Below are positions 1-63,597 of a stretch of DNA of 64,000 bases, piece after piece (position 1 is the stretch's first letter; each line of letters opens with the position of its first letter). The notes under the pieces are model-generated. The model made no database searches. It was not told where the DNA came from and saw only the letters and a list, made by a program, of their open reading frames with translations. Made by a program: the position numbers and the translations under genes. This DNA is from Opitutales bacterium (GTDB taxonomy: Bacteria; Verrucomicrobiota; Verrucomicrobiia; Opitutales; UBA2987). The DNA lies in NCBI GenBank assembly GCA_965226885.1, contig CBDDEL010000014.1, positions 430,590 through 494,589 on the forward strand. Reading direction: 5' to 3'.

Positions 1-528
1 GGTCACCGCCCTGGTTACCCATATGCTCGAGCAACGCGACAACCACGACCTGCAGCGCTTCATGAAGCAACTCGAAAGGCTCGACCTACTCATCCTCGAC
101 GAACTCGGTTACGTCCCTTTTTCCAAGACCGGTTCCGAACTGCTCTTCGACGTGGTCAGCCGCGCTTACGAGCGCACCAGTCTCATCGTCACCACCAACC
201 TGCCCTTTGAGAACTGGATCGAAGTGCTCGGTTCCGAACGGCTCACCGGAGCTCTGCTGGACCGACTCACCCATCGGGTGCATATCCTCGAAGCCAACGG
301 GCAAAGCTACCGCTTGCGCGATGCTCGACGCCGTCGCCGTGGCACAAAACAATAAACGCCTTGGGCCCGGCTCGTCGGCCTCCGGCCTCCTCACCGACCC
401 CAAGCCAATCCCCAAAACCAACTCCCAAACCCTAAACCTTGACGTACCTGCAATTACTAACCTAAACCTTATTCCAAGCGTACCGGTTTTACCCCGACCC
501 CCGTACCGGTTTCATCCCGGCGTTTACA
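1..528 (+). mobile_element. IS21-family element, copy 1; only the 3-prime part is present (runs off the window start)
   Basis: Near-identical to the complete copy at 27514-30003 in opposite orientation. Ends at 516-528 with terminal repeat cccggcgtttaca, preceded by reiterated gtaccggttt motifs as in IS21 multi-repeat ends. Confidence 0.85.
2..355 (+). CDS. istB: IstB-like ATP-binding transposition helper, C-terminal part (5-prime end outside window)
   Basis: Translation VTALVTHMLEQRDNHDLQRFMKQLERLDLLILDELGY... matches the C-terminal half of the 253-aa IstB at 27687-28448. It carries an extra in-frame 6-bp duplication (cgccgt x2, 329-340). Confidence 0.85.
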   Translation, partial: VTALVTHMLEQRDNHDLQRFMKQLERLDLLILDELGYVPFSKTGSELLFDVVSRAYERTSLIVTTNLPFENWIEVLGSERLTGALLDRLTHRVHILEANGQSYRLRDARRRRRGTKQ

Positions 529-622
529 CAGCAGAACCTCGAAAGTAATCATCTAGCACCTCCATATTGGTATGTCACCAGCGGCTGTGTACAGTTTTGG
601 GTAAAACCCCTTATAATTCCCC

Positions 623-710
623 AATTTTGGTCCTGAGCGAGGCGCCCTTGAAGGTGCCGGGACACATAAGTCCCTGCTCTTCAAGGGGAACGCTGCTCAG
701 GACCAAAATT
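623..710. repeat. 88-nt extended imperfect hairpin (nested inverted repeats)
   Basis: Outer arms aattttggtcctgagc (623-638) and gctcaggaccaaaatt (695-710) are perfect over 16 bp. Inner arms are cccttgaag (645-653) / cttcaaggg (679-687), and the apical stem is gggac/gtccc with loop acataa. Confidence 0.7.
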
Positions 711-929
711 GCCCCAGCCCTTCGGGTTGTGGCGGTTTGGGGCATCTGCGGCGTCCGATCGGCTCGGAGAACCCCATTTACGGGTTGATCCGAACCGATC
801 CGCCTTGCTTATGCCGCCAAAACGCTCACAACAGAGGGCATTCACCCTTTTCGAACAGGCTCATGCTAGATCGTAGCGGAAAGCGGAAGCTTCTCGTATT
901 CCAGGATGCCCGAAGTTTCACCGTGCCTT

Positions 930-2160: not shown

Positions 2161-4462
2161 TTATTGCCCTACGCCGCTCGATTGACCACCGGTGAGGAAA
2201 TAGCTATCCACATCGCTCGCGAATGTGTCCGTGGCGGCATCGAGCCTACCGTCACCGAGGTCCGGTCGAAGGGAGGAGTCGCTGATTGATCGCTGACCGG
2301 ATGAAGCGGTAAAACTGAAAGGATAGACGCCATCATCCGTGTCGACCCGAAGTGACCCTACCGCTTCACGCAAGTCTCCTCCGGTAACGGAAATCTCCTG
2401 AATGGTCGATGATGGATCTATTATGATTCTCGGGGCAGCCCGCCCGACAGGAGTGAGGTCACCAATAAGCAGAAAATTCGCAACGATGACGTCGGGTGCA
2501 TTTATGCCGATGAATTGCAACACCCCCGGCAATCCCACGAAATTTGCATTGGCTGCGTTTATGCCGCCGATCATCGTTACTTGCCCATCGGCCGATTCCA
2601 CCGAGATTGATTTAATGTCGGCAATTCCATCGACATTACCCGAAAAAGTGCTGCCACTGATTATGGCCGTGTCGACGCGATCGGGATCATTGCCTAAAGT
2701 AAACACCGATAAATAGGTTCCCGCTGTGGAATTTGCGATGGTTATCGTCGCCAGACCCTGCACATAGGTCTTCCCGGTTTGGTTGTTATAAGGAGATGGT
2801 ACACTCGCGGCGAAGTCCTGTAGGCTGATCGTTAGGGTCGTATTCGGATCGTCGCTCCCGAATTCCACGAATACGAGATCACTGTCCAGATCGAGGAAAG
2901 CGACTCGAGTAATCTCGCCGGGAAAGGATGAGAACGTCGCTTCCGCCCCGTTTAATTCGAATCCGTCATAGATATTTGAATCCGTCATAGATATTTCCTT
3001 GAAACGAAGTGCCGTCGTTTACAAACAGGGCGGAGCCCTCCAGGAGCAGACTCGACGAAAGGGAAATGCGGGCCACCTGATATCCACCGGCTGTAAAGTC
3101 GGCATTCGGAAAAGCCGTTAATATCGCACCACCCGACGCGAACCCACTATGGAATTGCACCGTTCCATTTTCGTCTGGGCCCGTATTCGGCGCCGCCTGC
3201 TCGAGAAACGCCACGTTTGCCGGCACCTCGTCGTTCACTTCCGTACCGGCATCCCAAACCTGTGTTCCGAGGATTATGATCTCCGTCATGACGAAATTCC
3301 CTGATTCGTCAAAAACCTCATAGGCCATGGGATCCCCGTTACCTATGAACGCATCGTTACTCGGAATAATCATAGACGCGAAACTGAAATAGCGATTAAG
3401 CGGTGAACTGCTATCCAGGCTGAACTTGAACGCACTGGTGTTACCGGGAAAGAACACAGGGGGCGGACCCGGACCAGTGATGGTGGCGTCTTCAAAGCCC
3501 AACGCAGCGTTGGAAAATTCGGCCGAAAGCAAAGCGGTGGCGCCGTCCTCAGCTGTTGATTCCAGACCGGGAGAGGCTGCGGCACCCTCATCGAAGAGAT
3601 TGAAGCTGCCATCATGAAATCCCACCCAGAACGGCGCAAGATGAGTCCCTTCCGCCGGTGCCAGATTACTAATTGTCACAAGAACTTCGACGGGAGTGGC
3701 AGGTTTTTCGGTGATTGTTATTCGGACTATCTCGTAATCTTCCATCGTAAAGTCGGCATTCGGAAAAGCACCTAAGATCGCCCCTTCCTCGCTGAACCCC
3801 TCATGGAACTGGACGTTTCCGTCTTCACTCTCACCGGTGTTCGGCGCCGCCTGCTCGAGAAATGCCACGTTTGCAGGCACCTCGTCATTGACCTCGCTGC
3901 CGGCATCCCAAACCTGACTGCCCATTATGAGAATTTCCGTTTCGATGAAGTTTCCCTCCTCGTCGAATATCTCAAAGACGAGGGGATCATCATTGGCGAC
4001 AAAGGCATCGTTACTCGGAATTATCATGGAAGCGAAACTGAGGTAACGGCTCAGCGGCGAACCCGCGTCCAGGGTGAAGACAGTCGAATTCGAGTTACCC
4101 GGGAAAAAGACGGGAGGAGATCCCGGGCCGGTGATCGTCGCATCGCGCACGCCGCCTGCGCTCATTCCAAAATCGGCACTTACCGAACTCGTGTCTCCGT
4201 CCTCGGCGAGCGATTCGAGGGCTTCCGAAACGGTTTCTCCTTCATCAAACAGATCGAAACTCCCGTCGTGAAACCCGATCCATACCGGTGTCAAGTGCGT
4301 GCCTGCCTCGGGAGCAAGGTTTTCGATCGTCACCTTGATCGTTGTAGCATTCAAGCTGGAATTGAGCAACAGGCCAAACGCCATTATACCAACCGGCCAT
4401 CGCTTCCGAGGGCAGATTTTACAGCAGAGGGAGAAAAGGATGTTTTCGATTCGAATCTTCAT
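2161..4462 (-). pseudogene. Secreted protein with two tandem spondin_N-like domains and an uncharacterised C-terminal domain, split in two by a 19-bp tandem duplication
   Basis: ORFs 2966-4462 and 2161-2988 overlap at a duplicated NIYDGF coding unit. Removing one 19-bp copy restores a continuous frame (...SFQGNIYDGFELNGAE...). The internal roughly 240-aa repeat has motifs LAP(E/A)xGTHLxPxWxGFHDGSF, ASMIIPSNDAF and VPANVAFLEQAAPNTG. Confidence 0.7.
2959..2996. repeat. 19-bp perfect tandem duplication (gaatccgtcatagatattt x2)
   Basis: Read directly: 2959-2977 equals 2978-2996. Confidence 0.95.
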
Positions 4463-4530: not shown

Positions 4531-4866
4531 TCAACACCCGTTTTTCAAAGGCACTACAAAGTCGTTTCGACTTTTCTTTTTACCATACTCTTTTTTACGG
4601 GCAATTTCTTCCATTGGCTCCAGCAGAGGGCGTTCACCCTTTTCGAACAGGCTCATGCTAGGACGAGACAGTGTCTCAAAGTCGTTGACAGGTTCCGCTT
4701 TGGACGTAGGTTTCGTGTCGTTCCACATCCAGTCCACCTCGTTCGTGTCGTTCCACATCCAGTCCACCTCGTTTTGGTAACCAAAACTTTGAACCGGGAC
4801 CAGCAGAACCGTCAGGGTCAGGAGAATACACAGTGAGGAAGCGAAGCGTTTGATCGTCGATGCCAT
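4531..4866 (-). CDS. Small secreted protein with duplicated NEVDWMWNDT unit
   Basis: ATG at 4866 gives a signal-peptide-like N-terminus, MASTIKRFASSLCILLTLTVLLVPVQSFG. A 30-bp in-frame tandem repeat lies at 4712-4773. No recognisable family. Confidence 0.4.
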   Translation of the reverse strand: MASTIKRFASSLCILLTLTVLLVPVQSFGYQNEVDWMWNDTNEVDWMWNDTKPTSKAEPVNDFETLSRPSMSLFEKGERPLLEPMEEIARKKEYGKKKSRNDFVVPLKNGC

Positions 4867-5909: not shown

Positions 5910-5962
5910 GGGGGGCTTTTGTAAGAACCTGTTATAAAACAGGTTATGCCAACAACAAGGTT

Positions 5963-7934: not shown

Positions 7935-8299
7935 GGATATGACATCACCACGGCGTGTCAGAACCGATTCAGAACGTCTCCCGTATTCTTTTCGAGAACT
8001 GCTTTCTCCGGATTTTTAAAGCGGCGCTTGTTATCGCCCTTCAGAATCGCCCCCACAACCTGTATCGTAAAATCTGGGTTATTGGCGTCTTCAGCTTCAC
8101 CGTTCACCGTAGTGCGATTCCCTAAGGAATAGGAGTCGGCACGGAAAGCCGAGGTCATTTGGGTGACCATAATTTCTGCCGATCCACGGCTTCCTCTTCG
8201 TCTCATCCCGTTTCCATGGTTATGTCCTTGACCGGCTTCCACCGGGCAGTCCGGTCTGAAAGTCTATTTCATGTCGGGTCTTGTCGCCATGGCCAACAT

Positions 8300-9030: not shown

Positions 9031-9033
9031 CGG

Positions 9034-10014: not shown

Positions 10015-10322
10015 TTCCTCATTGTTTTATAGCTTGATAGCAGACCCGAACACATCGCCGAAGTCTTCGATGGTGCGCTGAAGACCCTGTTTGTCAAGGG
10101 GAAAATGCTTGGGTTTGGAGGGAACTAACCGCTGCCTTGTTTGTGTGATCCCTGTCCTTTCAAACCTCGCCCCCGTTCGCCATCAGGACATATGTTAATC
10201 GAAGCCGTTCCAGTCGGTCGAAGCCGTTCCAGTCGGGCAACCCTCTCAACCAGACCTCCATGCGTCGGGTCCATACTCCAACAGGGATAGTCAGCTAACC
10301 GGTTCCCCGCACAGCTTTCTAG

Positions 10323-11890
10323 CCCGGATATTTCATGAAGGGTAAAGTTTGGCTCGTTATTGCTATTGGAGATGGATTTCTTTGTATTTTGAGCAGATCG
10401 TCTTGATTTTTAGGTGTTTTTCAGGGTGTAGAGACACTGCCCCCTTTCCCCCATTGGTTCGGTAGTGCCGGGGGCAGCACCAATGCACCCTTTAGGTTGG
10501 CACCAATCGGCGGGCCGCATGGTTGAAAAGACTGGCCCAAGGATAACTCTCACTTAGGTGAAAGTGAATCGTTCGGGTGTTGCGCACGATGACCGCTCCG
10601 ATCTTGATTAATTTGAGCCGCAGGGTGTGGCATTGGGCCCGCGCCCACTTCGTCCCTTTTAAGGCTAACCGGCGCATGGCTTCCATCAAGGTGTAGGCCA
10701 GCGCCGACAAGAGCAATCGCCACTGATTGGCCCACCATTGATGGGCGCTGGTGCGCTCGCTGAACAATTGCATCTGTTCCTTGATTCGGTTCTCCATTTC
10801 ACCGCGGCCACAGTATACCTTGTCGTAAAGCTCCTGGGGATCGCCCGGCAGGTTCGTCACCACGAAGCGCGGGTTGGACCCCTGTGCGGTGTGTTCGGCT
10901 TTATGGATGACCAACCGCAGCCATCGCCACGAATCGGCAGCATAGACGAAGTCCTGGAATAACCGTTGTTTTTTACCCCTTAGTTCGAACCATTCTTTGG
11001 CCTGCTTTTGCAACTGCTGGGCGTCTTGCTGCAAGCGTGCATTGCGAGCCATCCCCACGATGTAACTAACTTCGTTGCGGTCGCACCAAGAGAGTATCCG
11101 GTCTCGACAAAATCCACTGTCGGCGCGCCAAATAATCCGCGTACGGTGCCAGCTTTGGCGAATCCGTTTAACCAGCAATTTGAGGATGGCCCCGGCATGC
11201 TTGCTGGCATCGATCTTGCTCGGCCGCAGGTAGGCCACCAGCAGCTGATCACCGCAAAAAACATATAGCGGCAGAAAACAGTAATGATCATAATAACCGT
11301 GGAAAAAACGTCCCTCCTGGAGCCCGTGCACCGGATTGTCGGTGGCGTCAAAGTCCAGGATGATCTCTTCGGGTTCCTCGGCAAAGGAGCCCATGAACTG
11401 TTCGACCAACAGCTCGTTTACCGCAAAGGCCGCCCGCCGATCCTGCCCGTTTTCAAAACGACACAAAGTCGGCGCGCTGGCCAACGTTTCAATGCGCCCC
11501 GTTACCGTTTGCTAACAATGGATCGTGGCGCAGGGTATCAAAGTCGTTCAAATCCTCATAGCCCGCCACCAGCCCGTAAACGCGCTGCCGCAGCATCCCC
11601 AATACCTCATGGCGTACTTTGCCCTTCTGCCGTTTGTCCACTAACTGTCGGGCCGCTCGTTCGGTCAAGCCCAACTGCCGATCCACTTCCCGGATCAAAA
11701 GCAGTCCGGCATCCGAAGTAACCTCTCCGCCCTTGAAATCAACCCGCACACGGCGGCCTTTTACCCTTGTCAACTGTAGCTTTAATTGTTTACCTTTTGT
11801 CATCGCTGATATTGCTTTAATTATTGATCTATCCTGCTGTATATCAGCAGTTAAGCATATCAACGATACTTTTTTTACGAAATATCCGGG
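10323..11890 (-). mobile_element. IS-A copy 1 (IS1380 family), transposase frameshifted
   Basis: 12-bp IR cccggatatttc at both ends. Flanked by 4-bp direct repeat ctag (10319-10322 and 11891-11894). Confidence 0.9.
10492..11803 (-). pseudogene. IS1380-family transposase, disrupted by 1-nt insertion
   Basis: Split into ORFs 10492-11484 and 11489-11863. The sequence gtttgctaacaatgg replaces gtttgcaacaatgg of the other copies. Confidence 0.85.
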
Positions 11891-12228
11891 CTAGCCCGAC
11901 CCTTCGTGATTGAAAGGGACTTATGCTTCGCCTTGACACATAAGCGACCACGAGGAGGCATCACGGTTCCGCGGGAGCGGGAAGACTCGTCTCCGCCGGG
12001 ACGATGGCCATGATTCTCTTAAAGCTTTATGAAGCGATGAACATAAATGTCGTAGACGGATGTGCCCCCGCCGAAAATCCCTACTATCCAGGCATGCAAG
12101 ACATTAAAGAAGTTCTGGATGTAATAGTCGAATTGACTGAAAGGCTTAATCATGGCGGCTAAGTCCTCAATAATACGCTTCTCCCCTGACGACCGGGAAA
12201 CCAATCTAGGTATACAGACCTTATCCTA

Positions 12229-14051: not shown

Positions 14052-14098
14052 TAATTAGCGGTCAATAACTGTCAGACACAACATTCAAAAAAATTATT

Positions 14099-19192: not shown

Positions 19193-19318
19193 TGGCGGAA
19201 AAAATGTAATTTCGGTTTGCATTTTCGCGCCTGGTGCAAAATCTCCTTTATTTTGATTGGCCCCTTTGGCCCCTCTTTGCATATTGGACCAAAATCATTA
19301 TACTACCTTAAATTACAA

Positions 19319-42743: not shown

Positions 42744-42747
42744 CTAA

Positions 42748-43083: not shown

Positions 43084-43460
43084 ATGAAGAAACGAAAATT
43101 TAAACCCGAAACAGTCGCCGAAGCCATCAATGATGCTGGCGGGATTCTCATAAACGCGGCTCGAACACTCCGATGTAATCGCCGCACAGTATACGATTAC
43201 TCGATTACTGCCTGAATTTTAAAGTTTGCGCAAAGGCACGTGAGGAAGCCGAGGCTTCCACGACAGATTTGGCCGAGTCGAAATTGATCGAGCAAATCAA
43301 AGAGGGAAATATGACTGCGATCATCTTCTACCTTAAAACAAAGGCAAAAGCCCGCGGCTATGTAGAGCGACTCGAACAGACGGGTGCCGGCGGCAGACCT
43401 TTGGACGTAGGAACGAAAGTTTTGGCTCTGCCCATAATCAATATAGGAGATACGGAGTGA
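43084..43460 (+). pseudogene. Phage terminase small-subunit-like HTH protein, frameshifted by an 8-bp tandem duplication
   Basis: MKKRKFKPETVAEAINDAGGILINAARTLRCNRRTVYDY then stops. Removing one copy of cgattact (43194-43201 equals 43202-43209) joins it in frame to ...AREEAEASTTDLAESKLIEQIKEGNMTAIIFYLKTKAKARGYVER. Its end overlaps the terL start. Confidence 0.55.
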
Positions 43461-44160
43461 TCGGTGTTGCTCAGAGCGAAGATCACTTTTGGGAGCCGAA
43501 TCCGGGACCGCAGACGGCGTTTTTGAGCGCTGGACAGAGGGAGGTCCTATACGGTGGAGCTAATGGTGGTGGTAAATCCGATGCACTCCTCGCTGCCGCC
43601 ACTCGATACGTCGGTGAACCGGATCATACAGCTATCATATTCCGGCGAACCTATCCGGAATTAGGGGAGTTAATAAAACGGAGCTGGGACCTCTATCCGC
43701 TGCTCGGAGGCCGCTACAATAAGACTGAGAAGAAATGGCAATTCCCTTCTAGAGCGATTGTCATGTTCGGGAATCTTTCCTCTTTCAGCGACGCTCTCAA
43801 ATATCATGGCTGGCAATTTATTAATCCGGCAAATAAATAGTGATATATCAATAACTTATGCTAAAGTAGGTTCATGAATAGGAATGATGCGCCTTCACTA
43901 AGCGAAGAGACTATATATGAGCTGAGGTGTCGGGCGGTGGATCTGAAAAGAGAGGGTTGCACTTATGAAGAGGTTTCCGTGGTTTTAAAGGTATCGATCA
44001 GCGCTGTGCGCAAATGGTGGGCCCTTTACCGAAATGGAGGGCCAAAAGCCCTGCGGCTTGGACAACGGGGCCGTCGGCAGGGCCAATGTCGAAGATTGAG
44101 CTCCCAACAAGAGCGCATGGTGTGCCGAATGATTACCGATAAGAGACCCGACCAGCTTAA

Positions 44161-51942: not shown

Positions 51943-52158
51943 AATTCGTCACCTAAATAGAGGCTGTCCCAAAAGGGTGATTTTTGCGAGGGCTTTTGAT
52001 AGGCGCTCATTTTAGAGGTATTTGCATTTGGGAGAGTATCAACTTTGCTCTCCTATGACGTTAGGATACTGGTTTTGGGGTCCGGTTGCCTGGTATTCTT
52101 TGTATGAGCCGACAGTAAGGCTGTGAAAAAGTATTGTCCTTGCTTTTCCGCTCTCTAG

Positions 52159-53736
52159 CCCGGATATTTCATGAAGGGTAAAGTTTGGCTCGTGTTTGGC
52201 TCGTTATTGCTATTGGAGATGGATTTCTTTGTATTTTGAGCAGATCGTCTTGATTTTTAGGTGTTTTTCAGGGTGTAGAGACACTGCCCCCTTTCCCCCA
52301 TTGGTTCGGTAGTGCCGGGGGCAGCACCAATGCACCCTTTAGGTTGGCACCAATCGGCGGGCCGCATGGTTGAAAAGACTGGCCCAAGGATAACTCTCAC
52401 TTAGGTGAAAGTGAATCGTTCGGGTGTTGCGCACGATGACCGCTCCGATCTTGATTAATTTGAGCCGCAGGGTGTGCCATTGGGCCCGCGCCCACTTCGT
52501 CCCTTTTAAGGCTAACCGGCGCATGGCTTCCATCAAGGTGTAGGCCAGCGCCGACAAGAGCAATCGCCACTGATTGGCCCACCATTGATGGGCGCTGGTG
52601 CGCTCGCTGAACAATTGCATCTGTTCCTTGATTCGGTTCTCCATTTCACCGCGGCCACAGTATACCTTGTCGTAAAGCTCCTGGGGATCGCCCGGCAGGT
52701 TCGTCACCACGAAGCGCGGGTTGGACCCCTGTGCGGTGTGTTCGGCTTTATGGATGACCAACCGCAGCCATCGCCACGAATCGGCAGCATAGACGAAGTC
52801 CTGGAATAACCGTTGTTTTTTACCCCTTAGTTCGAACCATTCTTTGGCCTGCTTTTGCAACTGCTGGGCGTCTTGCTGCAAGCGTGCATTGCGAGCCATC
52901 CCCACGATGTAACTAACTTCGTTGCGGTCGCACCAAGAGAGTATCCGGTCTCGACAAAATCCACTGTCGGCGCGCCAAATAATCCGCGTACGGGGCCAGC
53001 TTTGGCGAATCCGTTTAACCAGCAATTTGAGGATGGCCCCGGCATGCTTGCTGGCATCGATCTTGCTCGGCCGCAGGTAGGCCACCAGCAGCTGATCACC
53101 GCAAAAAACATATAGCGGCAGAAAACAGTAATGATCATAATAACCGTGGAAAAAACGTCCCTCCTGGAGCCCGTGCACCGGATTGTCGGTGGCGTCAAAG
53201 TCCAGGATGATCTCTTCGGGTTCCTCGGCAAAGGAGCCCATGAACTGTTCGACCAACAGCTCGTTTACCGCAAAGGCCGCCCGCCAATCCTGCCCGTTTT
53301 CAAAACGACACAAAGTCGGCGCGCTGGCCAACGTTTCAATGCGCCCCGTTACCGTTTGCAACAATGGATCGTGGCGCAGGGTATCAAAGTCGTTCAAATC
53401 CTCATAGCCCGCCACCAGCCCGTAAACGCGCTGCCGCAGCATCCCCAATACCTCATGGCGTACTTTGCCCTTCTGCCGTTTGTCCACTAACTGTCGGGCC
53501 GCTCGTTCGGTCAAGCCCAACTGCCGATCCACTTCCCGGATCAAAAGCAGTCCGGCATCCGAAGTAACCTCTCCGCCCTTGAAATCAACCCGCACACGGC
53601 GGCCTTTTACCCTTGTCAACTGTAGCTTTAATTGTTTACCTTTTGTCATCGCTGATATTGCTTTAATTATTGATCTATCCTGCTGTATATCAGCAGTTAA
53701 GCATATCAACGATACTTTTTTTACGAAATATCCGGG
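52159..53736 (-). mobile_element. IS-A copy 6, inserted at the stop codon of the IS-B transposase
   Basis: Both IRs present. Direct repeat ctag (52155-52158, 53737-53740). Carries an 11-bp tandem duplication (52183-52204). Confidence 0.95.
52339..53649 (-). CDS. IS1380-family DDE transposase (two substitutions vs consensus: R to W, C to W)
   Basis: Intact ORF. Confidence 0.8.
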   Translation of the reverse strand: MTKGKQLKLQLTRVKGRRVRVDFKGGEVTSDAGLLLIREVDRQLGLTERAARQLVDKRQKGKVRHEVLGMLRQRVYGLVAGYEDLNDFDTLRHDPLLQTVTGRIETLASAPTLCRFENGQDWRAAFAVNELLVEQFMGSFAEEPEEIILDFDATDNPVHGLQEGRFFHGYYDHYCFLPLYVFCGDQLLVAYLRPSKIDASKHAGAILKLLVKRIRQSWPRTRIIWRADSGFCRDRILSWCDRNEVSYIVGMARNARLQQDAQQLQKQAKEWFELRGKKQRLFQDFVYAADSWRWLRLVIHKAEHTAQGSNPRFVVTNLPGDPQELYDKVYCGRGEMENRIKEQMQLFSERTSAHQWWANQWRLLLSALAYTLMEAMRRLALKGTKWARAQWHTLRLKLIKIGAVIVRNTRTIHFHLSESYPWASLFNHAARRLVPT

Positions 53737-55220
53737 CTAGGCCGCCGCTTTGGTTTTTAGTTCGTCTTGCTGGGCCAGCATCTTGGCTACTTTCCATAGG
53801 TTGTGCGAGAGTACCGACCAGGCTACGCTGATCGAGCGGTTGGCAAAGCCTTTGCTGCGCAACCGCCCGGCCTGCCAGCGATTCTTCAATACCCCGATCC
53901 GCCCTTCGGTGCTGGCCCGGCGCTTTTGCAATTGTCTGAACAGTGGTTCCTCCATCCGTTTTTTCAACTGCTTCGGATCGCGTGGACAGAGCGCGTCGTA
54001 GATTCCCTCCTGGGCTAACTGCCGGCGGGCCCGCTGGGAGGCAAATCCCCGGTCCGCGCACATGGCCGCTATGGGTTCTTCCAGGTTGAAGCGGTTCTGT
54101 CTTTGCAAACTCTCTTGCATTTGTTCATTTTCGCTTGGAGTTCGGCTGCCGTAGAGTTTCCAGTCCAGCAGGTACCCTTCAACGCTTTCTCCCAAAAACA
54201 GGGTGTTGCCGAACTCGACCTCTTGGCCCGCTTTACCTCGCACAATCACCTGCCCATCGAGTTCGTAAACACTCAAGACTTTCTCTGCGTTTTTCACCTG
54301 GCGGCCGCCAATGATCCGCTCGTGCGCCTGTTTGATGACCACCGGGATTTGCTCGCTCATGCGCTCCATCCGGGCGAGGATCTGTTGGACCTGTTTTTCG
54401 CTGTAATCGCTTTGCTCCCAGCAGGCTTGCAATAATTCCCGGTGACTGCGGGCATGCTCCCCGATCCGTTTGAGCAGCTTTTTCATCTGCCTCAAGATAC
54501 CCTTGCGCTGCCGCGCGCTGTCCTTTCGCCGCCGGCTGTGGGTCATCTGTATGCACAGCCGATTCATCTGCCGAGCCAAGGGCTCCGGTTCGATCGGCAT
54601 GCGATGGCGCAAACCGGCCTTCTCGCGGATCAGCCGGATCGCTTTGAGCAACGTGCCGGCTACATCCTTGAGTAATACCCAGTCCGTCGGCCAATGAATG
54701 TTAGCCTCCAAACAGGTGCCGTCGATCAGGCAAATGGTGGTGTCAATCGGCTTGTCCAATCCCACCTGCCGGGCCAGAAGGGCATCGCCCACCACCTCAG
54801 TCAAGGTCCGGTGCAAGGCCCTCAACTGCTCTTCGCTGAAAAACTTCGAGGCCCGCTCCAGGGTGCTTTTGGAGATGCCCCTGATGCCATCGATCTGCCG
54901 GACACGGCAAAAGTCGGCCAACAGATCGCTGCTGCCCAGAGCCCGCGACAAATGCCGAAACGAGATCCCTCCGAGCAGACGGCCCAGCGTATCCATGCGC
55001 AGTGTGCCTTGATGGCAAAACTGGCCCGCTGCCGCCGGGCCTTTAGACCCATTGGCTGCCACCCCTCCAAGGCCAGCTCAATGGCCTGCGATTCCACCTC
55101 CGAGTCGATCAGCAGCCGATCGATTCGATCAATGGTGGCGCGGAAGTTATCGTAATCGAGGCACCGGTCAACCACAGTTAAAGCTGGACGCAGGAGGCAT
55201 TGGATGGCTATATTTTTCAT
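53737..55220 (-). pseudogene. IS-B transposase, frameshifted by a 2-nt (tg) duplication at 55003-55006
   Basis: Split into ORFs 53737-55062 and 54822-55220. The sequence gcagtgtgcctt replaces gcagtgcctt of the other copies. Confidence 0.85.
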
Positions 55221-55436
55221 AGAAAGGGCTATATTGATTTTCGCTAACTCAATTATAGAACCCTTTTTTGGCCGGATCGAGCAAAAACTTGCTCTTTCCG
55301 GCTCTTTTTATCAACGTCATCCAGTTGACTATAAAATCTTTATATTTTTGGGACAGCCTCTAAATAGGTGGCCCACGGCCCCATTGATCTCGCTACGGCG
55401 AAAAAGCGAATATTTAAAAAATTAACAAAACAAACT

Positions 55437-57282: not shown

Positions 57283-59116
57283 GAGGCTGTCAGGCTGTCC
57301 CAAAAGGGTGATTTTTGCGAGGGCTTTTGATAGGCGCTCATTTTAGAGGTATTTGCATTTGGGAGAGTATCAACTTTGCTCTCCTATGACGTTAGGATAC
57401 TGGTTTTGGGGTCCGGTTGCCTGGTTTTCTTTGTATGAGCCGACAGTACGGCTGTGAAAAAGTATTGTCCTTGCTTTTCCGCTCTCTAGGCCGCCGCTTT
57501 GGTTTTTAGTTCGTCTTGCTGGGCCAGCATCTTGGCTACTTTCCATAGGTTGTGCGAGAGTACCGACCAGGCTACGCTGATCGAGCGGTTGGCAAAGCCT
57601 TTGCTGCGCAACCGCCCGGCCTGCCAGCGATTCTTCAATACCCCGATCCGCCCTTCGGTGCTGGCCCGGCGCTTTTGCAATTGTCTGAACAGTGGTTCCT
57701 CCATCCGTTTTTTCAACTGCTTCGGATCGCGTGGACAGAGCGCGTCGTAGATTCCCTCCTGGGCTAACTGCCGGCGGGCCCGCTGGGAGGCAAATCCCCG
57801 GTCCGCGCACATGGCCGCTATGGGTTCTTCCAGGTTGAAGCGGTTCTGTCTTTGCAAACTCTCTTGCATTTGTTCATTTTCGCTTGGAGTTCGGCTGCCG
57901 TAGAGTTTCCAGTCCAGCAGGTACCCTTCAACGCTTTCTCCCAAAAACAGGGTGTTGCCGAACTCGACCTCTTGGCCCGCTTTACCTCGCACAATCACCT
58001 GCCCATCGAGTTCGTAAACACTCAAGACTTTCTCTGCGTTTTTCACCTGGCGGCCGCCAATGATCCGCTCGTGCGCCTGTTTGATGACCACCGGGATTTG
58101 CTCGCTCATGCGCTCCATCCGGGCGAGGATCTGTTGGACCTGTTTTTCGCTGTAATCGCTTTGCTCCCAGCAGGCTTGCAATAATTCCCGGTGACTGCGG
58201 GCATGCTCCCCGATCCGTTTGAGCAGCTTTTTCATCTGCCTCAAGATACCCTTGCGCTGCCGCGCGCTGTCCTTTCGCCGCCGGCTGTGGGTCATCTGTA
58301 TGCACAGCCGATTCATCTGCCGAGCCAAGGGCTCCGGTTCGATCGGCATGCGATGGCGCAAACCGGCCTTCTCGCGGATCAGCCGGATCGCTTTGAGCAA
58401 CGTGCCGGCTACATCCTTGAGTAATACCCAGTCCGTCGGCCAATGAATGTTAGCCTCCAAACAGGTGCCGTCGATCAGGCAAATGGTGGTGTCAATCGGC
58501 TTGTCCAATCCCACCTGCCGGGCCAGAAGGGCATCGCCCACCACCTCAGTCAAGGTCCGGTGCAAGGCCCTCAACTGCTCTTCGCTGAAAAACTTCGAGG
58601 CCCGCTCCAGGGTGCTTTTGGAGATGCCCCTGATGCCATCGATCTGCCGGACACGGCAAAAGTCGGCCAACAGATCGCTGCTGCCCAGAGCCCGCGACAA
58701 ATGCCGAAACGAAATCCCTCCGAGCAGACGGCCCAGCGTATCCATGCGCAGTGCCTTGATGGCAAAACTGGCCCGCTGCCGCCGGGCCTTTAGACCCATT
58801 GGCGGCCACCCCTCCAAGGCCAGCTCAATGGCCTGCGATTCCACCTCCGAGTCGATCAGCAGCCGATCGATTCGATCAATGGTGGCGCGGAAGTTATCGT
58901 AATCGAGGCACCGGTCGACCACAGTTAAAGCTGGACGCAGGAGGCATTGGATGGCTATATTTTTCATAGAAAGCATAGAAAGGGCTATATTGATTTTCGC
59001 TAACTCAATTATAGAACCCTTTTTTGGCCGGATCGAGCAAAAACTTGCTCTTTCCGGCTCTTTTTATCAACGTCATCCAGTTGACTATAAAATCTTTATA
59101 TTTTTGGGACAGCCTC
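57283..59116 (-). mobile_element. IS-B copy 4, with an intact ORF but duplications in one IR and at the start codon
   Basis: 7-bp direct repeat tatgtta (57276-57282, 59117-59123). 8-bp duplication aggctgtc x2 inside the IR (57284-57299). 9-bp duplication catagaaag x2 (58965-58982). Confidence 0.9.
57486..58967 (-). CDS. IS-B DDE transposase (IS4/IS5 superfamily, about 493 aa)
   Basis: DGTCLEANIHWPTDWVLLKD, CADRGF, and the C-terminal RRASTEGRIGVLK motif (R-x3-E-x6-K). The precise family (IS1634-like or IS1182-like) is not resolved. Confidence 0.8.
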   Translation of the reverse strand: MKNIAIQCLLRPALTVVDRCLDYDNFRATIDRIDRLLIDSEVESQAIELALEGWPPMGLKARRQRASFAIKALRMDTLGRLLGGISFRHLSRALGSSDLLADFCRVRQIDGIRGISKSTLERASKFFSEEQLRALHRTLTEVVGDALLARQVGLDKPIDTTICLIDGTCLEANIHWPTDWVLLKDVAGTLLKAIRLIREKAGLRHRMPIEPEPLARQMNRLCIQMTHSRRRKDSARQRKGILRQMKKLLKRIGEHARSHRELLQACWEQSDYSEKQVQQILARMERMSEQIPVVIKQAHERIIGGRQVKNAEKVLSVYELDGQVIVRGKAGQEVEFGNTLFLGESVEGYLLDWKLYGSRTPSENEQMQESLQRQNRFNLEEPIAAMCADRGFASQRARRQLAQEGIYDALCPRDPKQLKKRMEEPLFRQLQKRRASTEGRIGVLKNRWQAGRLRSKGFANRSISVAWSVLSHNLWKVAKMLAQQDELKTKAAA

Positions 59117-59184
59117 TATGTTAACGACCACTCCAACAAAGACAGACATTGGCTGTTGGGTCAGATCCTGACTTTTACAGGTTA

Positions 59185-60020: not shown

Positions 60021-60110
60021 GGCCGGATCGAGCAAAAACTTGCTCTTCAAGTCTATTCTTATAAACGTCATATAATTGAGTACAAAATCTTTATATTTTT
60101 TGACAGCCTC
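60021..60110 (-). mobile_element. Diverged solo right-end fragment of an IS-B-like element (about 90 bp)
   Basis: ggccggatcgagcaaaaacttgctc...atctttatattttttgacagcctc aligns at roughly 80 percent with the IS-B transposase-proximal end. Confidence 0.7.
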
Positions 60111-60593
60111 TAATTAGAGGCTGTCCCAAAAGGGTGATTTTTGCGAGGGCTTTTGATAGGCGCTCATTTTAGAGGTATTTGCATTTGGGAGAGTATCAAC
60201 TTTGCTCTCCTATGACGTTAGGATACTGGTTTTGGGGTCCGGTTGCCTGGTTTTCTTTGTATGAGCCGACAGTACGGCTGTGAAAAAGTATTGTCCTTGC
60301 TTTTCCGCTCTCTAGGCCGCCGCTTTGGTTTTTAGTTCGTCTTGCTGGGCCAGCATCTTGGCTACTTTCCATAGGTTGTGCGAGAGTACCGACCAGGCTA
60401 CGCTGATCGAGCGGTTGGCAAAGCCTTTGCTGCGCAACCGCCCGGCCTGCCAGCGATTCTTCAATACCCCGATCCGCCCTTCGGTGCTGGCCCGGCGCTT
60501 TTGCAATTGTCTAAACAGTGGTTCCTCCATCCGTTTTTTCAACTGCTTCGGATCGCGTGGACAGAGCGCGTCGTAGATTCCCTCCTGGGCTAA

Positions 60594-62160
60594 CCCGGAT
60601 ATTTCATGAAGGGTAAAGTTTGGCTCGTTATTGCTATTGGAGATGGATTTCTTTGTATTTTGAGCAGATCGTCTTGATTTTTAGGTGTTTTTCAGGGTGT
60701 AGAGACACTGCCCCCTTTCCCCCATTGGTTCGGTAGTGCCGGGGGCAGCACCAATGCACCCTTTAGGTTGGCACCAATCGGCGGGCCGCATGGTTGAAAA
60801 GACTGGCCCAAGGATAACTCTCACTTAGGTGAAAGTGAATCGTTCGGGTGTTGCGCACGATGACCGCTCCGATCTTGATTAATTTGAGCCGCAGGGTGTG
60901 GCATTGGGCCCGCGCCCACTTCGTCCCTTTTAAGGCTAACCGGCGCATGGCTTCCATCAAGGTGTAGGCCAGCGCCGACAAGAGCAATCGCCACTGATTG
61001 GCCCACCATTGATGGGCGCTGGTGCGCTCGCTGAACAATTGCATCTGTTCCTTGATTCGGTTCTCCATTTCACCGCGGCCACAGTATACCTTGTCGTAAA
61101 GCTCCTGGGGATCGCCCGGCAGGTTCGTCACCACGAAGCGCGGGTTGGACCCCTGTGCGGTGTGTTCGGCTTTATGGATGACCAACCGCAGCCATCGCCA
61201 CGAATCGGCAGCATAGACGAAGTCCTGGAATAACCGTTGTTTTTTACCCCTTAGTTCGAACCATTCTTTGGCCTGCTTTTGCAACTGCTGGGCGTCTTGC
61301 TGCAAGCGTGCATTGCGAGCCATCCCCACGATGTAACTAACTTCGTTGCGGTCGCACCAAGAGAGTATCCGGTCTCGACAAAATCCACTGTCGGCGCGCC
61401 AAATAATCCGCGTACGGGGCCAGCTTTGGCGCATCCGTTTAACCAGCAATTTGAGGATGGCCCCGGCATGCTTGCTGGCATCGATCTTGCTCGGCCGCAG
61501 GTAGGCCACCAGCAGCTGATCACCGCAAAAAACATATAGCGGCAGAAAACAGTAATGATCATAATAACCGTGGAAAAAACGTCCCTCCTGGAGCCCGTGC
61601 ACCGGATTGTCGGTGGCGTCAAAGTCCAGGATGATCTCTTCGGGTTCCTCGGCAAAGGAGCCCATGAACTGTTCGACCAACAGCTCGTTTACCGCAAAGG
61701 CCGCCCGCCGATCCTGCCCGTTTTCAAAACGACACAAAGTCGGCGCGCTGGCCAACGTTTCAATGCGCCCCGTTACCGTTTGCAACAATGGATCGTGGCG
61801 CAGGGTATCAAAGTCGTTCAAATCCTCATAGCCCGCCACCAGCCCGTAAACGCGCTGCCGCAGCATCCCCAATACCTCATGGCGTACTTTGCCCTTCTGC
61901 CGTTTGTCCACTAACTGTCGGGCCGCTCGTTCGGTCAAGCCCAACTGCCGATCCACTTCCCGGATCAAAAGCAGTCCGGCATCCGAAGTAACCTCTCCGC
62001 CCTTGAAATCAACCCGCACACGGCGGCCTTTTACCCTTGTCAACTGTAGCTTTAATTGTTTACCTTTTGTCATCGCTGATATTGCTTTAATTATTGATCT
62101 ATCCTGCTGTATATCAGCAGTTAAGCATATCAACGATACTTTTTTTACGAAATATCCGGG
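60594..62160 (-). mobile_element. IS-A copy 7
   Basis: Both IRs present. Direct repeat ctaa (60590-60593, 62161-62164). Confidence 0.95.
60763..62073 (-). CDS. IS1380-family DDE transposase (one substitution, I to M)
   Basis: Intact ORF. Confidence 0.8.
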   Translation of the reverse strand: MTKGKQLKLQLTRVKGRRVRVDFKGGEVTSDAGLLLIREVDRQLGLTERAARQLVDKRQKGKVRHEVLGMLRQRVYGLVAGYEDLNDFDTLRHDPLLQTVTGRIETLASAPTLCRFENGQDRRAAFAVNELLVEQFMGSFAEEPEEIILDFDATDNPVHGLQEGRFFHGYYDHYCFLPLYVFCGDQLLVAYLRPSKIDASKHAGAILKLLVKRMRQSWPRTRIIWRADSGFCRDRILSWCDRNEVSYIVGMARNARLQQDAQQLQKQAKEWFELRGKKQRLFQDFVYAADSWRWLRLVIHKAEHTAQGSNPRFVVTNLPGDPQELYDKVYCGRGEMENRIKEQMQLFSERTSAHQWWANQWRLLLSALAYTLMEAMRRLALKGTKWARAQCHTLRLKLIKIGAVIVRNTRTIHFHLSESYPWASLFNHAARRLVPT

Positions 62161-63597
62161 CTAACTCCCAGCGGGCCCGCTGGGAGGCAAATCCCCGGTC
62201 CGCGCACATGGCCGCTATGGGTTCTTCCAGGTTGAAGCGGTTCTGTCTTTGCAAACTCTCTTGCATTTGTTCATTTTCGCTTGGAGTTCGGCTGCCGTAG
62301 AGTTTCCAGTCCAGCAGGTACCCTTCAACGCTTTCTCCCAAAAACAGGGTGTTGCCGAACTCGACCTCTTGGCCCGCTTTACCTCGCACAATCACCTGCC
62401 CATCGAGTTCGTAAACACTCAAGACTTTCTCTGCGTTTTTCACCTGGCGGCCGCCAATGATCCGCTCGTGCGCCTGTTTGATGACCACCGGGATTTGCTC
62501 GCTCATGCGCTCCATCCGGGCGAGGATCTGTTGGACCTGTTTTTCGCTGTAATCGCTTTGCTCCCAGCAGGCTTGCAATAATTCCCGGTGACTGCGGGCA
62601 TGCTCCCCGATCCGTTTGAGCAGCTTTTTCATCTGCCTCAAGATACCCTTGCGCTGCCGCGCGCTGTCCTTTCGCCGCCGGCTGTGGGTCATCTGTATGC
62701 ACAGCCGATTCATCTGCCGAGCCAAGGGCTCCGGTTCGATCGGCATGCGATGGCGCAAACCGGCCTTCTCGCGGATCAGCCGGATCGCTTTGAGCAACGT
62801 GCCGGCTACATCCTCGAGTAATACCCAGTCCGTCGGCCAATGAATGTTAGCCTCCAAACAGGTGCCGTCGATCAGGCAAATGGTGGTGTCAATCGGCTTG
62901 TCCAATCCCACCTGCCGGGCCAGAAGGGCATCGCCCACCACCTCAGTCAAGGTCCGGTGCAAGGCCCTCAACTGCTCTTCGCTGAAAAACTTCGAGGCCC
63001 GCTCCAGGGTGCTTTTGGAGATGCCCCTGATGCCATCGATCTGCCGGACACGGCAAAAGTCGGCCAACAGATCGCTGCTGCCCAGAGCCCGCGACAAATG
63101 CCGAAACGAAATCCCTCCGAGCAGACGGCCCAGCGTATCCATGCGCAGTGCCTTGATGGCAAAACTGGCCCGCTGCCGCCGGGCCTTTAGACCCATTGGC
63201 GGCCACCCCTCCAAGGCCAGCTCAATGGCCTGCGATTCCACCTCCGAGTCGATCAGCAGCCGATCGATTCGATCAATGGTGGCGCGGAAGTTATCGTCAT
63301 CAAGGCACCGGTCGACCACAGTTAAAGCTGGACGCAGGAGGCATTGGATGGCTATATTTTTCATAGAAAGGGCTATATTGATTTTGATTTTCGCTAACTC
63401 AATTATAGAACCCTTTTTTGGCCGGATCGAGCAAAAACTTGCTCTTTCCGGCTCTTTTTATCAACGTCATCCAGTTGACTATAAAATCTTTATATTTTTG
63501 GGACAGCCTCTAATTACGGACTGCCGTTTCATCGCATCAGGATGAAGCGGTCCGGTAGGTGCAATTCCCCTCAACTCAAGCGATGAGAGAAATGCGA

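What the first reader, a model, noticed from the sequence alone, without database searches (positions are those of the whole stretch)
329..63391. Short perfect tandem duplications (2-30 bp) recur throughout the window and account for several gene disruptions
I read the following head-to-tail duplications directly.

In unique genes or intergenic sequence:
- 19 bp at 2959-2996, splitting the spondin-like gene
- 30 bp at 4712-4773, in frame
- a 15-nt unit with 17-nt period at 5941-5972
- 19 bp at 10199-10236
- 25 bp at 35742-35791, frameshifting the OprB-like porin
- 8 bp at 43194-43209, frameshifting the terS-like gene

In IS copies:
- 6 bp at 329-340 (IS21 copy 1 vs copy 2)
- 7 bp at 12578-12591
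- 6 bp at 33821-33832
- 18 bp at 38535-38570
- 6 bp at 42865-42876
- 11 bp at 52183-52204
- 2 bp at 55003-55006
- 8 bp at 57284-57299
- 9 bp at 58965-58982
- 6 bp at 63380-63391

There is also a 35-bp deletion between 9-bp direct repeats, with its junction at 42667-42675.

For the events inside IS copies the ancestral state is known from the sibling copies, so these are recent derived changes. Among the IS-A copies I count about ten base substitutions against about seven length changes, by eye. That indel-to-substitution ratio is far higher than is usual for bacteria.

The pattern fits frequent replication slippage or template switching with relaxed selection, as in a lineage undergoing genome decay. 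Weakened ssDNA-exonuclease or mismatch-repair control is one possible cause.
Basis: partly seen in the sequence, partly recalled or inferred. Interest (0 to 1): 0.75.

Follow-up and report, generated by a model that had tools for sequence, protein, structure and literature searches.

The report
Burst of short tandem duplications
One strain cluster of an uncultured, transposon-laden Opitutales bacterium has recently gained many perfect 2-30 bp head-to-tail duplications that lack flanking microhomology and break genes, which looks like a natural duplication-type mutator if reads confirm it.

Summary
All 16 listed duplications and the 35-bp deletion are in the sequence. I found six more tandem duplications (TDs) and two complex insertions.

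- **Excess over chance:** perfect TDs with units of 8 bp or more number 11, against about 1.1 in shuffles. Units of 11 bp or more number 6, against 0.01. A 150-kb E. coli control has 3 and 0.
- **Derived state:** sibling IS copies, close strains that lack the TDs, and three reading frames restored by removing one copy all show the TDs are recent.
- **Spectrum:** window-lineage length changes are 22 insertions to 2 deletions. In IS-A plus IS-B there are 10 TDs against about 28 substitutions.
- **No microhomology:** 13 of 20 TDs have none and only 1 has 3 bp or more, unlike the microhomology-mediated TDs that dominate elsewhere.
- **No mismatch-repair signature**, no hairpins and no polisher periodicity.
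- **Distribution:** TDs occur in the window and its two closest relatives (0.15-0.26% divergence). They are absent from eight more distant relatives, two of them from the same assembly as one TD-positive contig.

Best reading: a real, recent, lineage-specific, microhomology-independent duplication bias. The closest match is the E. coli topA R168C mutator spectrum. The cause is untested, and an assembly artefact is not fully excluded.

The parts
329..340 (.). 6-bp TD (CGCCGT x2) in a terminal IS21 fragment
   Evidence: It is the only difference from the full IS21 copy at 27514-28035 (0 mismatches, one 6-bp gap).
2161..4462 (-). Spondin_N-domain gene split into 498-aa and 275-aa ORFs
   Evidence: Intact 759-aa orthologues occur on at least 6 other contigs.
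2782..2787 (.). 3-bp in-frame TD (GTT x2) in the spondin-like gene
   Evidence: Absent from L009, L010 and L011.
2959..2996 (.). 19-bp perfect TD with no microhomology; frameshifts the spondin-like gene
   Evidence: Absent from L009, L010 and L011.
4575..4588 (.). 14-bp complex insertion, an imperfect partial copy of the next 10 nt plus 5 new nt
   Evidence: Absent from L010 and L011.
4712..4773 (.). 30-bp perfect TD with 2-bp microhomology, downstream of an outer-membrane-protein gene
   Evidence: Single copy in L010 and L015.
5931..5959 (.).
   Evidence: Absent from L005.
8096..8110 (.).
   Evidence: Absent from L005, L010 and L015.
10199..10236 (.). 19-bp perfect TD, 84 bp from the left end of IS-A copy A1
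   Evidence: L005 and L015 lack both the TD and this IS-A copy.
10320..11894 (-). IS-A copy A1 (IS1380 family, 4-bp YTAR target duplication); carries a 1-bp T insertion
12227..14058 (-). IS-B copy B1 (ISNCY/IS5-like, about 1.83 kb)
12578..12593 (.). 7-bp TD (CCCCGAT x2) in B1. A 1-bp deletion at 12551, present only in the window, restores the frame.
   Evidence: The TD is shared with the orthologous IS-B copy in L001, an independent assembly.
19257..19274 (.). 9-bp perfect TD, intergenic, polarity unknown
   Evidence: Identical in the Logan contig L003.
32285..33864 (+). IS-A copy A2 inserted in a CHASE3 chemoreceptor gene
33821..33832 (.). 6-bp TD in the non-coding end of A2
34628..35834 (+). 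OprB-family porin gene frameshifted near its 3' end
35742..35791 (.). 25-bp perfect TD with no microhomology
   Evidence: The L004 alignment stops at the end of the first copy.
38461..39988 (-). IS-B copy B2, truncated by IS-A
38535..38570 (.). 18-bp perfect TD in the non-coding end of B2
39983..42927 (.). Nested IS-A cluster: A3 (39983-41212), A4 (41208-42746) and fragment A8 (42744-42927)
42667..42675 (.). Junction of the 35-bp deletion between 9-bp direct repeats in A4
42863..42891 (.). 6-bp TD (42863-42878, 4-bp microhomology) and 2-bp TD (42888-42891) in fragment A8
43024..43040 (.). 8-bp perfect TD (AAGCATGC x2), polarity unknown
43054..43460 (+). terS-like gene of a prophage remnant, followed by a terL fragment at 43457-43840
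   Evidence: The terS match is weak (E 0.003); terL scores E 7e-25.
43194..43209 (.). 8-bp TD; removing one copy restores the 132-aa terS-like ORF
44158..45731 (-). IS-A copy A5 inserted in an IS630 element
51958..55367 (-). IS-B copy B3 interrupted by IS-A copy A6 (52156-53744)
52183..52204 (.). 11-bp TD in the non-coding end of A6, in the same 45-bp stretch as three other IS-A TDs
55003..55006 (.). 2-bp TD in the B3 coding region
57292..59118 (-). IS-B copy B4
57284..57299 (.). 8-bp TD inside the terminal inverted repeat of B4
58965..58982 (.). 9-bp in-frame TD spanning the B4 start codon
60115..63519 (-). IS-B copy B5 interrupted by IS-A copy A7 (60591-62164)
62165..62186 (.). Perfect 22-bp palindrome. 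Two substitutions correct the imperfect palindrome found in the four sibling copies. It starts 1 nt from the A7 junction.
63378..63391 (.). 6-bp TD in the non-coding end of B5

Best explanation
These are real, very recent mutations. They reflect a strain-cluster-specific mutational bias towards de novo head-to-tail duplication of 2-30 bp that needs no pre-existing repeat or microhomology.

The organism is an uncultured Opitutales (Verrucomicrobiota) bacterium with ongoing IS1380-family and ISNCY/IS5-like expansion. The duplications persist where selection is weak (IS ends, intergenic DNA, dispensable surface and prophage genes) and create pseudogenes there.

Inferred mechanism, not shown: faulty handling of single-strand nicks or flaps. 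One route is strand-displacement synthesis from a nick followed by ligation of the uncut 5' flap. Another is fill-in and rejoining of two closely spaced nicks on opposite strands. A single enzyme change can produce this spectrum, as the E. coli topoisomerase I R168C mutator shows.

Classical repeat-mediated slippage and mismatch-repair loss are not the main cause.
For: Excess and derived state:
- Excess over shuffles and over the E. coli control.
- Derived state from sibling IS copies, from close strains lacking the TDs and from ORF restoration.

Spectrum:
- 22 insertions to 2 deletions, 237 to 36 nt, P = 8e-7 against the Burkholderia pseudogene baseline of 0.76.
- 10 TDs of >=2 bp against about 28 substitutions in IS-A plus IS-B, a ratio of 0.36. 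The topA R168C lines give about 5e-4 insertions against 1-2e-3 point mutations per genome per generation.
- Microhomology is 0 in 13 of 20 TDs and >=3 bp in 1 of 20. P = 0.0013 and 2e-5 against the pan-bacterial pattern.
- Four independent TDs fall within 45 bp of the IS-A end, a hotspot as in the topA mutant.

Evidence against an artefact:
- The 7-bp TD is shared by the window and L001, which differ in sample and contig-naming style.
- L002 carries its own 20-bp and 16-bp TDs and L001 a 25-bp TD.
- TD-positive contigs are the three closest relatives (0.15-0.26% divergence). L005, L015, L010, L011, L009, L012, L013 and L004 have none of >=11 bp in unique sequence. L004 and L012 come from the same assembly as L002.
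- There are 0 TDs in about 21 kb of intact non-IS coding sequence.
- TD positions show no periodicity.

Boundary context is non-random: A/T at -4 and -3 in 16 of 20, A/T at +4 and +8 in 18 of 20, G/C at +5 in 16 of 20, local-null P about 0.005. This suggests an enzyme-defined step.
Against: - Every sequence comes from long-read metagenome assemblies, and no reads were inspected.
- All but one window TD are private to one contig.
- Look-ups of dup-bearing ORFs found no second contig, and P0121 sits on one contig only.
- Low-coverage relatives (3x, 7x) carry 1-bp non-repeat indels that look like read errors, so these assemblies are imperfect.
- The sample is about 107 kb from the TD-positive cluster, and the window was chosen because it looked odd.
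- The boundary motif was found post hoc with n = 20.
- There is no C at -4, the type IA topoisomerase cleavage preference (recalled from memory), at either boundary.
- No repair or replication gene of this genome could be examined.
- Enrichment in non-coding IS ends could reflect selection on transposase function rather than a hotspot.
Confidence: 0.5

Rival explanations
1. Classical replication slippage or template switching under relaxed selection in a decaying genome, possibly from weak ssDNA-exonuclease or mismatch-repair control.
For: - Template switching does occur. A quasi-palindrome is corrected at 62165-62186.
- Repeat-mediated deletions occur: 35 bp in A4 and 20 bp in L010, each between 9-bp repeats.
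- Two complex insertions are built from imperfect local copies.
- IS expansion and pseudogenes are present.
Against: - 65% of TDs have no microhomology and only 5% have >=3 bp.
- There is no hairpin tendency.
- Insertions outnumber deletions 11 to 1.
- Transitions to transversions are ordinary, and only one homopolymer indel was seen.
- Close strains under the same selective regime lack the TDs.
Confidence: 0.15
2. Assembly or consensus artefact of the long-read metagenome pipeline that built this contig.
For: - Nearly all TDs are private to the 634-kb source contig.
- Five close strains covering the same loci lack them.
- Related low-coverage contigs carry obvious 1-bp errors.
- No independent contig carries the dup-bearing ORFs.
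Against: - The 7-bp TD at 12578 occurs in the orthologous IS-B copy of an independent assembly and in no other copy.
- TD-positive contigs come from at least two assemblies (ERZ21829562 and ERZ28669063), and the window's own assembly is unknown.
- L004 and L012, from the same assembly as L002, have no TD of >=11 bp in 41.7 kb.
- There are no TDs in about 21 kb of intact coding sequence.
- TD positions show no periodicity.
- TD-positive contigs form the closest-related group.
- Logan contigs match the window exactly over 8.6 and 3.5 kb.
Confidence: 0.15
3. By-product of IS activity. Either transposase-made nicks (abortive transposition) or error-prone host gap repair at new insertion junctions generates the duplications.
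For: - 8 of 10 TDs in IS-A and IS-B lie in the non-coding terminal ~200 bp. Four are within 60 bp of the IS-A end and one is inside the IS-B inverted repeat.
- The palindrome correction starts 1 nt from an IS-A junction.
- The 19-bp TD at 10199 lies 84 bp from IS-A copy A1, and L005 and L015 lack both.
- TD flanks are A/T-rich, like the IS target sites.
- IS-A and IS-B occur in the same young clade that has TDs.
Against: - Both elements make 4-bp target duplications, not 2-30 bp.
- Several TDs are 0.9-2.3 kb from any IS end: 2959, 35742, the two in L002 and the one in L001.
- L005 has IS-A but no TD in 8 kb.
- Enrichment in IS ends can be explained by selection against frameshifted, cis-acting transposases.
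Confidence: 0.15

Closest known systems
E. coli topoisomerase I (topA) R168C mutator spectrum (Bachar et al., Nucleic Acids Res 2020, PMC6954433)
   Same: It produces de novo head-to-tail duplications of 2-19 bp that do not depend on existing repeats. They cluster in hotspots and point mutation is unchanged. The insertion to point-mutation ratio is about 0.25-0.5. Here the TDs are 2-30 bp with random-like microhomology, IS-A has a hotspot, and the ratio is about 0.36.
   Different: That mutator is a laboratory mutant with a known cause. Here the cause is unknown and topA could not be examined. The boundaries do not show C at -4.
Microhomology-mediated tandem duplication, the dominant TD class across life (bioRxiv 10.64898/2026.02.28.708716; PMC8639346)
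   Same: Short head-to-tail duplications of single-copy DNA that are polymorphic between close strains.
   Different: In that class, variable TDs in bacteria lack microhomology in only 25-30% of cases and have >3 bp in about 50%. Here the figures are 65% and 5%.
Duplication mutator of yeast rad27/FEN1 and of E. coli polA 5'-nuclease mutants (Tishkoff et al. 1997; Nagata et al. 2002; recalled from memory)
   Same: Insertion-biased duplications of about 5-100 bp attributed to unprocessed Okazaki flaps.
   Different: Those duplications are flanked by 3-12 bp direct repeats, which are not seen here. No polA or xni sequence was available.
[quoted passage not shown] 2016, cited in PMC6954433; Vaughn and Bennetzen 2014, from memory)
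   Same: Microhomology-independent TDs of a few to tens of bp. The duplicated segment equals the distance between two nicks.
   Different: That is a eukaryotic process that depends on end joining. Whether this bacterium has Ku/LigD is unknown.
IS target-site duplications and excision footprints
   Same: Perfect direct repeats made by fill-in of staggered cuts, in a genome dense with IS elements.
   Different: IS-A and IS-B both make 4-bp duplications. The TDs range from 2 to 30 bp, and most are not at IS junctions.
Indel spectra of pseudogenes in IS-rich symbionts (Danneels et al. 2018, PMC6054270)
   Same: IS expansion, pseudogenes, and insertions that often form direct repeats (about 50% there).
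   Different: There deletions dominate (insertion to deletion 0.76 by count, 0.18 by size) and few events exceed 15 nt. Here the tally is 22:2 by count and 237:36 nt, with six TDs of 18-30 bp.

Membership tests
Repeat- or microhomology-mediated slippage duplication | Microhomology arms (>=3-4 bp) at both ends of the duplicated unit | tested here: not met
   13 of 20 TDs have 0 bp and 1 of 20 has >=3 bp. P = 2e-5 against the ~50% reported.
Repeat- or microhomology-mediated slippage duplication | Expansion of a pre-existing tandem repeat | tested here: not met
   Sibling IS copies and close strains carry exactly one copy.
topA R168C-like microhomology-independent TD mutator | Head-to-tail duplications of a few to ~20 bp, independent of existing repeats | tested here: met
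   2-30 bp with random-like microhomology. The laboratory phenotype is described.
topA R168C-like microhomology-independent TD mutator | Clustering in hotspots | tested here: inconclusive
   Four independent TDs fall within 45 bp of the IS-A end. Selection on the transposase could produce the same pattern.
topA R168C-like microhomology-independent TD mutator | TD rate about a quarter to a half of the point-mutation rate, with an ordinary substitution spectrum | tested here: met
   10 TDs to about 28 substitutions in IS copies. Transitions to transversions are 6:5 and 13:6, to be compared.
topA R168C-like microhomology-independent TD mutator | A causal substitution in topoisomerase I | not testable with these tools
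   No topA from this genome could be retrieved. The single genome-contig scan returned one locus.
Mismatch-repair-deficient mutator | Transition-dominated substitutions and 1-bp indels in homopolymers | tested here: not met
   Transitions to transversions are 6:5 and 13:6. One homopolymer indel was found among 24 window-lineage length changes.
ssDNA-exonuclease-deficient template-switch mutator | Quasi-palindrome correction events | tested here: inconclusive
   One clear case at 62165-62186. There is no baseline, and TD sites are not hairpin-prone.
ssDNA-exonuclease-deficient template-switch mutator | Loss or damage of recJ, xseAB or sbcB/exoX | not testable with these tools
IS target-site duplication or excision footprint | Repeat length equals the element's target-duplication length, at an IS junction or former junction | tested here: not met
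   IS-A and IS-B duplicate 4 bp. The TDs are 2-30 bp. No relative has an IS at a TD site.
Assembly or polishing artefact | Not reproduced in independent assemblies | tested here: inconclusive
   The 7-bp TD at 12578 is reproduced in L001. The other TDs have no second contig.
Assembly or polishing artefact | Regular spacing, and equal incidence in all genomes of one assembly | tested here: not met
   No periodicity at 100 bp to 10 kb. L004 and L012 have no TD of >=11 bp, while L002 from the same assembly has two.
Reductive genome decay | IS proliferation and pseudogenes | tested here: met
   About 26 kb of the 64 kb is IS DNA. The spondin-like, OprB-like, chemoreceptor and terS-like genes are disrupted.
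Reductive genome decay | Deletional bias and a shrinking genome | tested here: not met
   Insertions to deletions are 22:2. A 96%-identical relative lies on a 7.0-Mb contig. The size of this genome itself is unknown.

The most novel reading that the evidence does not exclude
A naturally occurring, very young mutator sub-lineage of an uncultured Opitutales bacterium. Its dominant length mutation is microhomology-independent tandem duplication of 2-30 bp with a defined boundary context (A/T-rich 5' flank; A/T at +4 and +8, G/C at +5 on the 3' side). That context would imply an enzyme-defined nick, flap, topoisomerase or transposase step that has not been described in wild bacteria. The causal allele could be found by comparing TD-positive strains with TD-negative strains that differ by only 0.4-0.6%.
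Probability: 0.3. Interest if true: 0.7.

Novelty: new member of a known kind. Interest (0 to 1): 0.5.

Why it matters
How tandem repeats arise de novo from non-repetitive DNA is an open question (stated in PMC6954433). The only bacterial system known to produce microhomology-free short duplications at high rate is a laboratory topA mutant.

A wild strain cluster with the same spectrum would offer three things:
- It would show that such mutators occur and persist in nature.
- TD-negative sister strains at under 1% divergence would allow a direct comparative search for the responsible allele.
- It would document an insertion-biased route to pseudogenes, against the usual deletional bias of bacterial genomes.

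If the duplications turn out to be artefacts, that is a useful quality warning for long-read metagenome-assembled genomes. In that case the pseudogene calls for this genome would be inflated.

Tried and rejected
- **Hairpin-driven duplication:** DNA folding of ancestral TD sites with 40-nt flanks, compared with local controls, gave mean z +0.54, so there is no excess structure.
- **Topoisomerase IA cleavage signature (C at -4):** absent at both boundaries on both strands.
- **Polisher or stitching artefact:** no periodicity at 100, 200, 250, 500, 1000, 2000 or 10000 bp. The 5000-bp period gave a nominal p of 0.05, uncorrected for eight tests.
- **IS footprints:** both abundant IS types make 4-bp target duplications.
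- **Genome-wide IS census:** The JGI metagenome scan found nothing. The plasmid collection has no IS-A.
- **Independent contigs for dup-bearing ORFs:** the spondin N-terminal half and the B1 and B4 transposases are not on record. The OprB-with-TD protein sits on one contig only.
- **Acetobacter hypothesis:** I first suspected Acetobacter because of IS1380 and 53% GC. I dropped this when the closest genome proved to be an Opitutales MAG.
- **Split genes in other strains:** splits of the spondin gene in L010 and L011 come from 1-bp non-repeat indels on 7x and 3x contigs. These are probably read errors, so I did not count them as biology.
- **G-rich repeats in L015:** the period-10 and period-22 repeats at L015:4611-4774 and 12023 look like low-complexity coding repeats and were not counted.

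Full report
**1. What is in the sequence**

All 16 listed duplications are at the stated coordinates, and 15 are perfect head-to-tail copies. The item at 5941-5972 is imperfect and belongs to a larger event (section 3). A systematic scan found further perfect tandem duplications (TDs) at 8096-8110 (7 bp), 19257-19274 (9 bp) and 43024-43040 (8 bp). Alignments added a 3-bp TD at 2782-2787 and a 2-bp TD at 42888-42891.

Perfect primitive TDs with units of 8 bp or more number 11, against 1.07 in local shuffles. Units of 11 bp or more number 6, against 0.01. Three 50-kb stretches of E. coli K-12 hold 3 and 0. The excess is real.

**2. Setting**

About 26 kb of the 64 kb is insertion-sequence DNA.
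- IS-A is an IS1380-family element of about 1575 bp with 4-bp YTAR target duplications. It has eight copies or fragments.
- IS-B is an ISNCY/IS5-like element of about 1830 bp with 4-bp A/T-rich target duplications. It has five copies, two of them interrupted by IS-A.
- IS21 and IS630 elements and a terS/terL prophage remnant are also present.
- A block at 14-27 kb carries intact housekeeping genes.

The only genome hit is a MAG labelled Opitutales bacterium, CBDDCJ010000026.1. The window itself comes from a 634,247-bp contig held by NCBI and ENA. The frameshifted OprB product and both spondin halves are recorded on that contig.

**3. The duplications are derived**

*Sibling IS copies.* Every IS event is private to one copy.
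- IS-A has 11 substitutions and 7 length changes: +6, +11, +2, +6, +1, +1 and -35.
- IS-B has about 16-17 substitutions and 7 length changes: +18, +7, +2, +9, +6, +8 and -1.

*Close strains lack the TDs.*
- L005 (0.37% divergent) lacks the 19-bp TD at 10199, the 7-bp TD at 8096 and 29 bp at 5931.
- L010 and L011 (0.6%) lack the 19-bp and 3-bp TDs in the spondin gene and the 14-bp insertion at 4575. L010 also lacks the 7-bp TD and has a single copy of the 30-bp unit.
- L015 (0.42%) lacks the 19-, 7- and 30-bp TDs.
- L009 (96% identical) has an intact 759-aa spondin-like gene.

*Restored reading frames.* Removing one copy restores a 760-aa spondin-like ORF, a 393-aa OprB ORF whose C-terminus aligns with homologues, and a 132-aa terS-like ORF.

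**4. The spectrum is unusual**

*Direction.* Window-lineage length changes are 18 TDs, 2 complex templated insertions and 2 single-base insertions, against 2 deletions. That is 237 nt gained and 36 nt lost. Burkholderia pseudogenes show 0.76 insertions per deletion, a size ratio of about 0.2, and few events above 15 nt. The difference gives P = 8e-7.

*Rate.* In IS-A plus IS-B there are 10 TDs of 2 bp or more against about 28 substitutions.

*Microhomology.* Thirteen of 20 TDs have no microhomology and one has 3 bp or more, which is close to random expectation. Across bacteria only 25-30% of variable TDs lack microhomology and about half have more than 3 bp. The tests give P = 0.0013 and 2e-5.

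*Other tests.*
- Substitutions are ordinary: transitions to transversions are 6:5 and 13:6. Only one homopolymer indel was seen, so there is no mismatch-repair signature.
- TD sites are not structured (mean z +0.54).
- Boundaries are not random. A/T occurs at -4 and -3 in 16 of 20 TDs, and at +4 and +8 in 18 of 20. G/C occurs at +5 in 16 of 20. The local-null P is about 0.005. This was found post hoc and needs more events.

**5. Who has it**

- L002 (0.26% from the window) carries its own 20-bp and 16-bp TDs, which split a response-regulator/kinase gene. Its IS-B copy has further 8-bp and 2-bp duplications.
- L001 (0.15%) shares the 7-bp TD in the orthologous IS-B copy and has a private 25-bp TD.
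- No TD of 11 bp or more in unique sequence occurs in L005, L010, L011, L015, L009, L012, L013 or L004. L015's only long TD is a period-22 G-rich low-complexity repeat that was not counted.
- The nine indels between L009 and L012 include no multi-base TD; three are single-base homopolymer changes.

So the signature is confined to the three most closely related contigs. These come from at least two assemblies with different contig-naming styles. L004 and L012 come from the same assembly as L002 yet lack TDs.

**6. Artefact or biology**

*Against an artefact:*
- the shared 7-bp TD
- the phylogenetic coherence
- the contrast between genomes within one assembly
- zero TDs in about 21 kb of intact non-IS coding sequence, against 20 elsewhere (P = 4e-4; this test is partly circular)
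- no positional periodicity
- exact agreement of two Logan contigs with the window over 12 kb

*For an artefact:*
- no reads were seen
- most TDs are private to one contig
- look-ups found no second contig for dup-bearing ORFs
- low-coverage relatives carry obvious 1-bp errors

I put the artefact reading at about 15%.

**7. Mechanism**

The best-matching known phenotype is the E. coli topA R168C mutator. It produces:
- de novo head-to-tail duplications of 2-19 bp that are independent of repeats
- hotspots
- unchanged point mutation
- about 5e-4 insertions against 1-2e-3 point mutations per genome per generation

The ratio, size range, lack of microhomology and the IS-A hotspot all match. That paper and the plant work it cites point to mis-repair of single-strand breaks.

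I therefore favour a nick- or flap-processing defect. This is an inference. No topA, polA, ligase or exonuclease gene of this genome was accessible, and the boundaries lack the C at -4 that I recall for type IA cleavage.

Template switching does occur. The evidence is the palindrome correction at 62165-62186, 1 nt from an IS-A junction, and the two complex insertions. Repeat-mediated deletions occur as well. These are the minority.

A link to IS activity remains possible. Eight of 10 IS TDs lie in terminal non-coding DNA. The 10199 TD and the neighbouring IS-A copy are absent together from L005 and L015. However, several TDs lie 1-2 kb from any IS end, and both IS types duplicate only 4 bp.

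**8. Verdict**

The changes are recent, derived and gene-breaking, and the ratio is abnormal. Classical slippage, mismatch-repair loss and simple genome decay do not fit well.

It is a natural instance of a kind of mutational bias known from one laboratory mutant. It is of moderate interest pending read-level confirmation.

Noticed in passing
window 12551 and 12578-12593; L001:5750-7630: In IS-B copy B1, the 7-bp TD is shared with L001. A 1-bp deletion 27 bp away is present only in the window. It gives a net +6 and restores a 495-aa transposase ORF, which looks like a compensatory frameshift.
   Followed up: partly
window 62165-62186: Two substitutions turn an imperfect palindrome, present in four sibling IS-B copies, into a perfect 22-bp palindrome. 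It starts 1 nt from the IS-A A7 insertion junction. This is a template-switch signature, possibly made during gap repair after transposition.
   Followed up: partly
window IS-A left ends: 33821-33832, 42863-42891, 52183-52204: Four independent duplications (6, 6, 2 and 11 bp) fall in the same ~45-bp non-coding stretch downstream of the IS1380-family transposase stop codon. This may be a hotspot or the result of selection on the transposase.
   Followed up: partly
flanks of 20 TDs in the window, L001 and L002: The sequence context at TD boundaries is non-random. A/T occurs at -4 and -3 in 16 of 20, A/T at +4 and +8 in 18 of 20, and G/C at +5 in 16 of 20. 'TG' at +4/+5 is frequent. The pattern was found post hoc and is unexplained.
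   Followed up: partly
L002:11180-11195 (IS-B copy): An imperfect 8-bp duplication (CGGCTGTG AGGCTGTG) sits exactly where a C/A polymorphism separates IS-B copies. The two units carry the two alleles.
   Followed up: no
L012:9814-9912: A 99-bp insertion with palindromic ends, resembling a miniature inverted-repeat element, interrupts the spondin-like gene of the 96%-identical relative.
   Followed up: no
L010:11706 and L011:4094-4425: Contigs at 7x and 3x coverage carry 1-bp non-repeat insertions that split the spondin-like gene. These are probably read errors, so some pseudogene calls in these assemblies are unreliable.
   Followed up: partly
window 39983-42927, 44158-45731, 52156-53744, 60591-62164: IS-A has inserted into other mobile elements: twice into IS-B at different sites, once into an IS630 element, and into other IS-A copies. 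It has also inserted into a chemoreceptor gene at 32285-33864. IS positions differ between strains that are under 0.5% divergent.
   Followed up: partly
window 29902-32304 and 2966-4462: Two genes have old internal repeats. The chemoreceptor has three CHASE3 matches, with 30198-30790 and 30678-31270 about 72% identical. The spondin-like gene has two Spond_N domains, with 3093-3424 and 3747-4078 about 75% identical.
   Followed up: no
window 36065-36994 (-): An apparently intact OGG1-type 8-oxoguanine DNA glycosylase gene lies next to the broken OprB gene. It is the only DNA-repair gene in the window.
   Followed up: no
L004:10001-11120: The OprB orthologue of the 89%-identical sister species is independently broken by a 1-bp frameshift and an IS next to its 5' end. 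The gene is therefore dispensable across the clade.
   Followed up: partly
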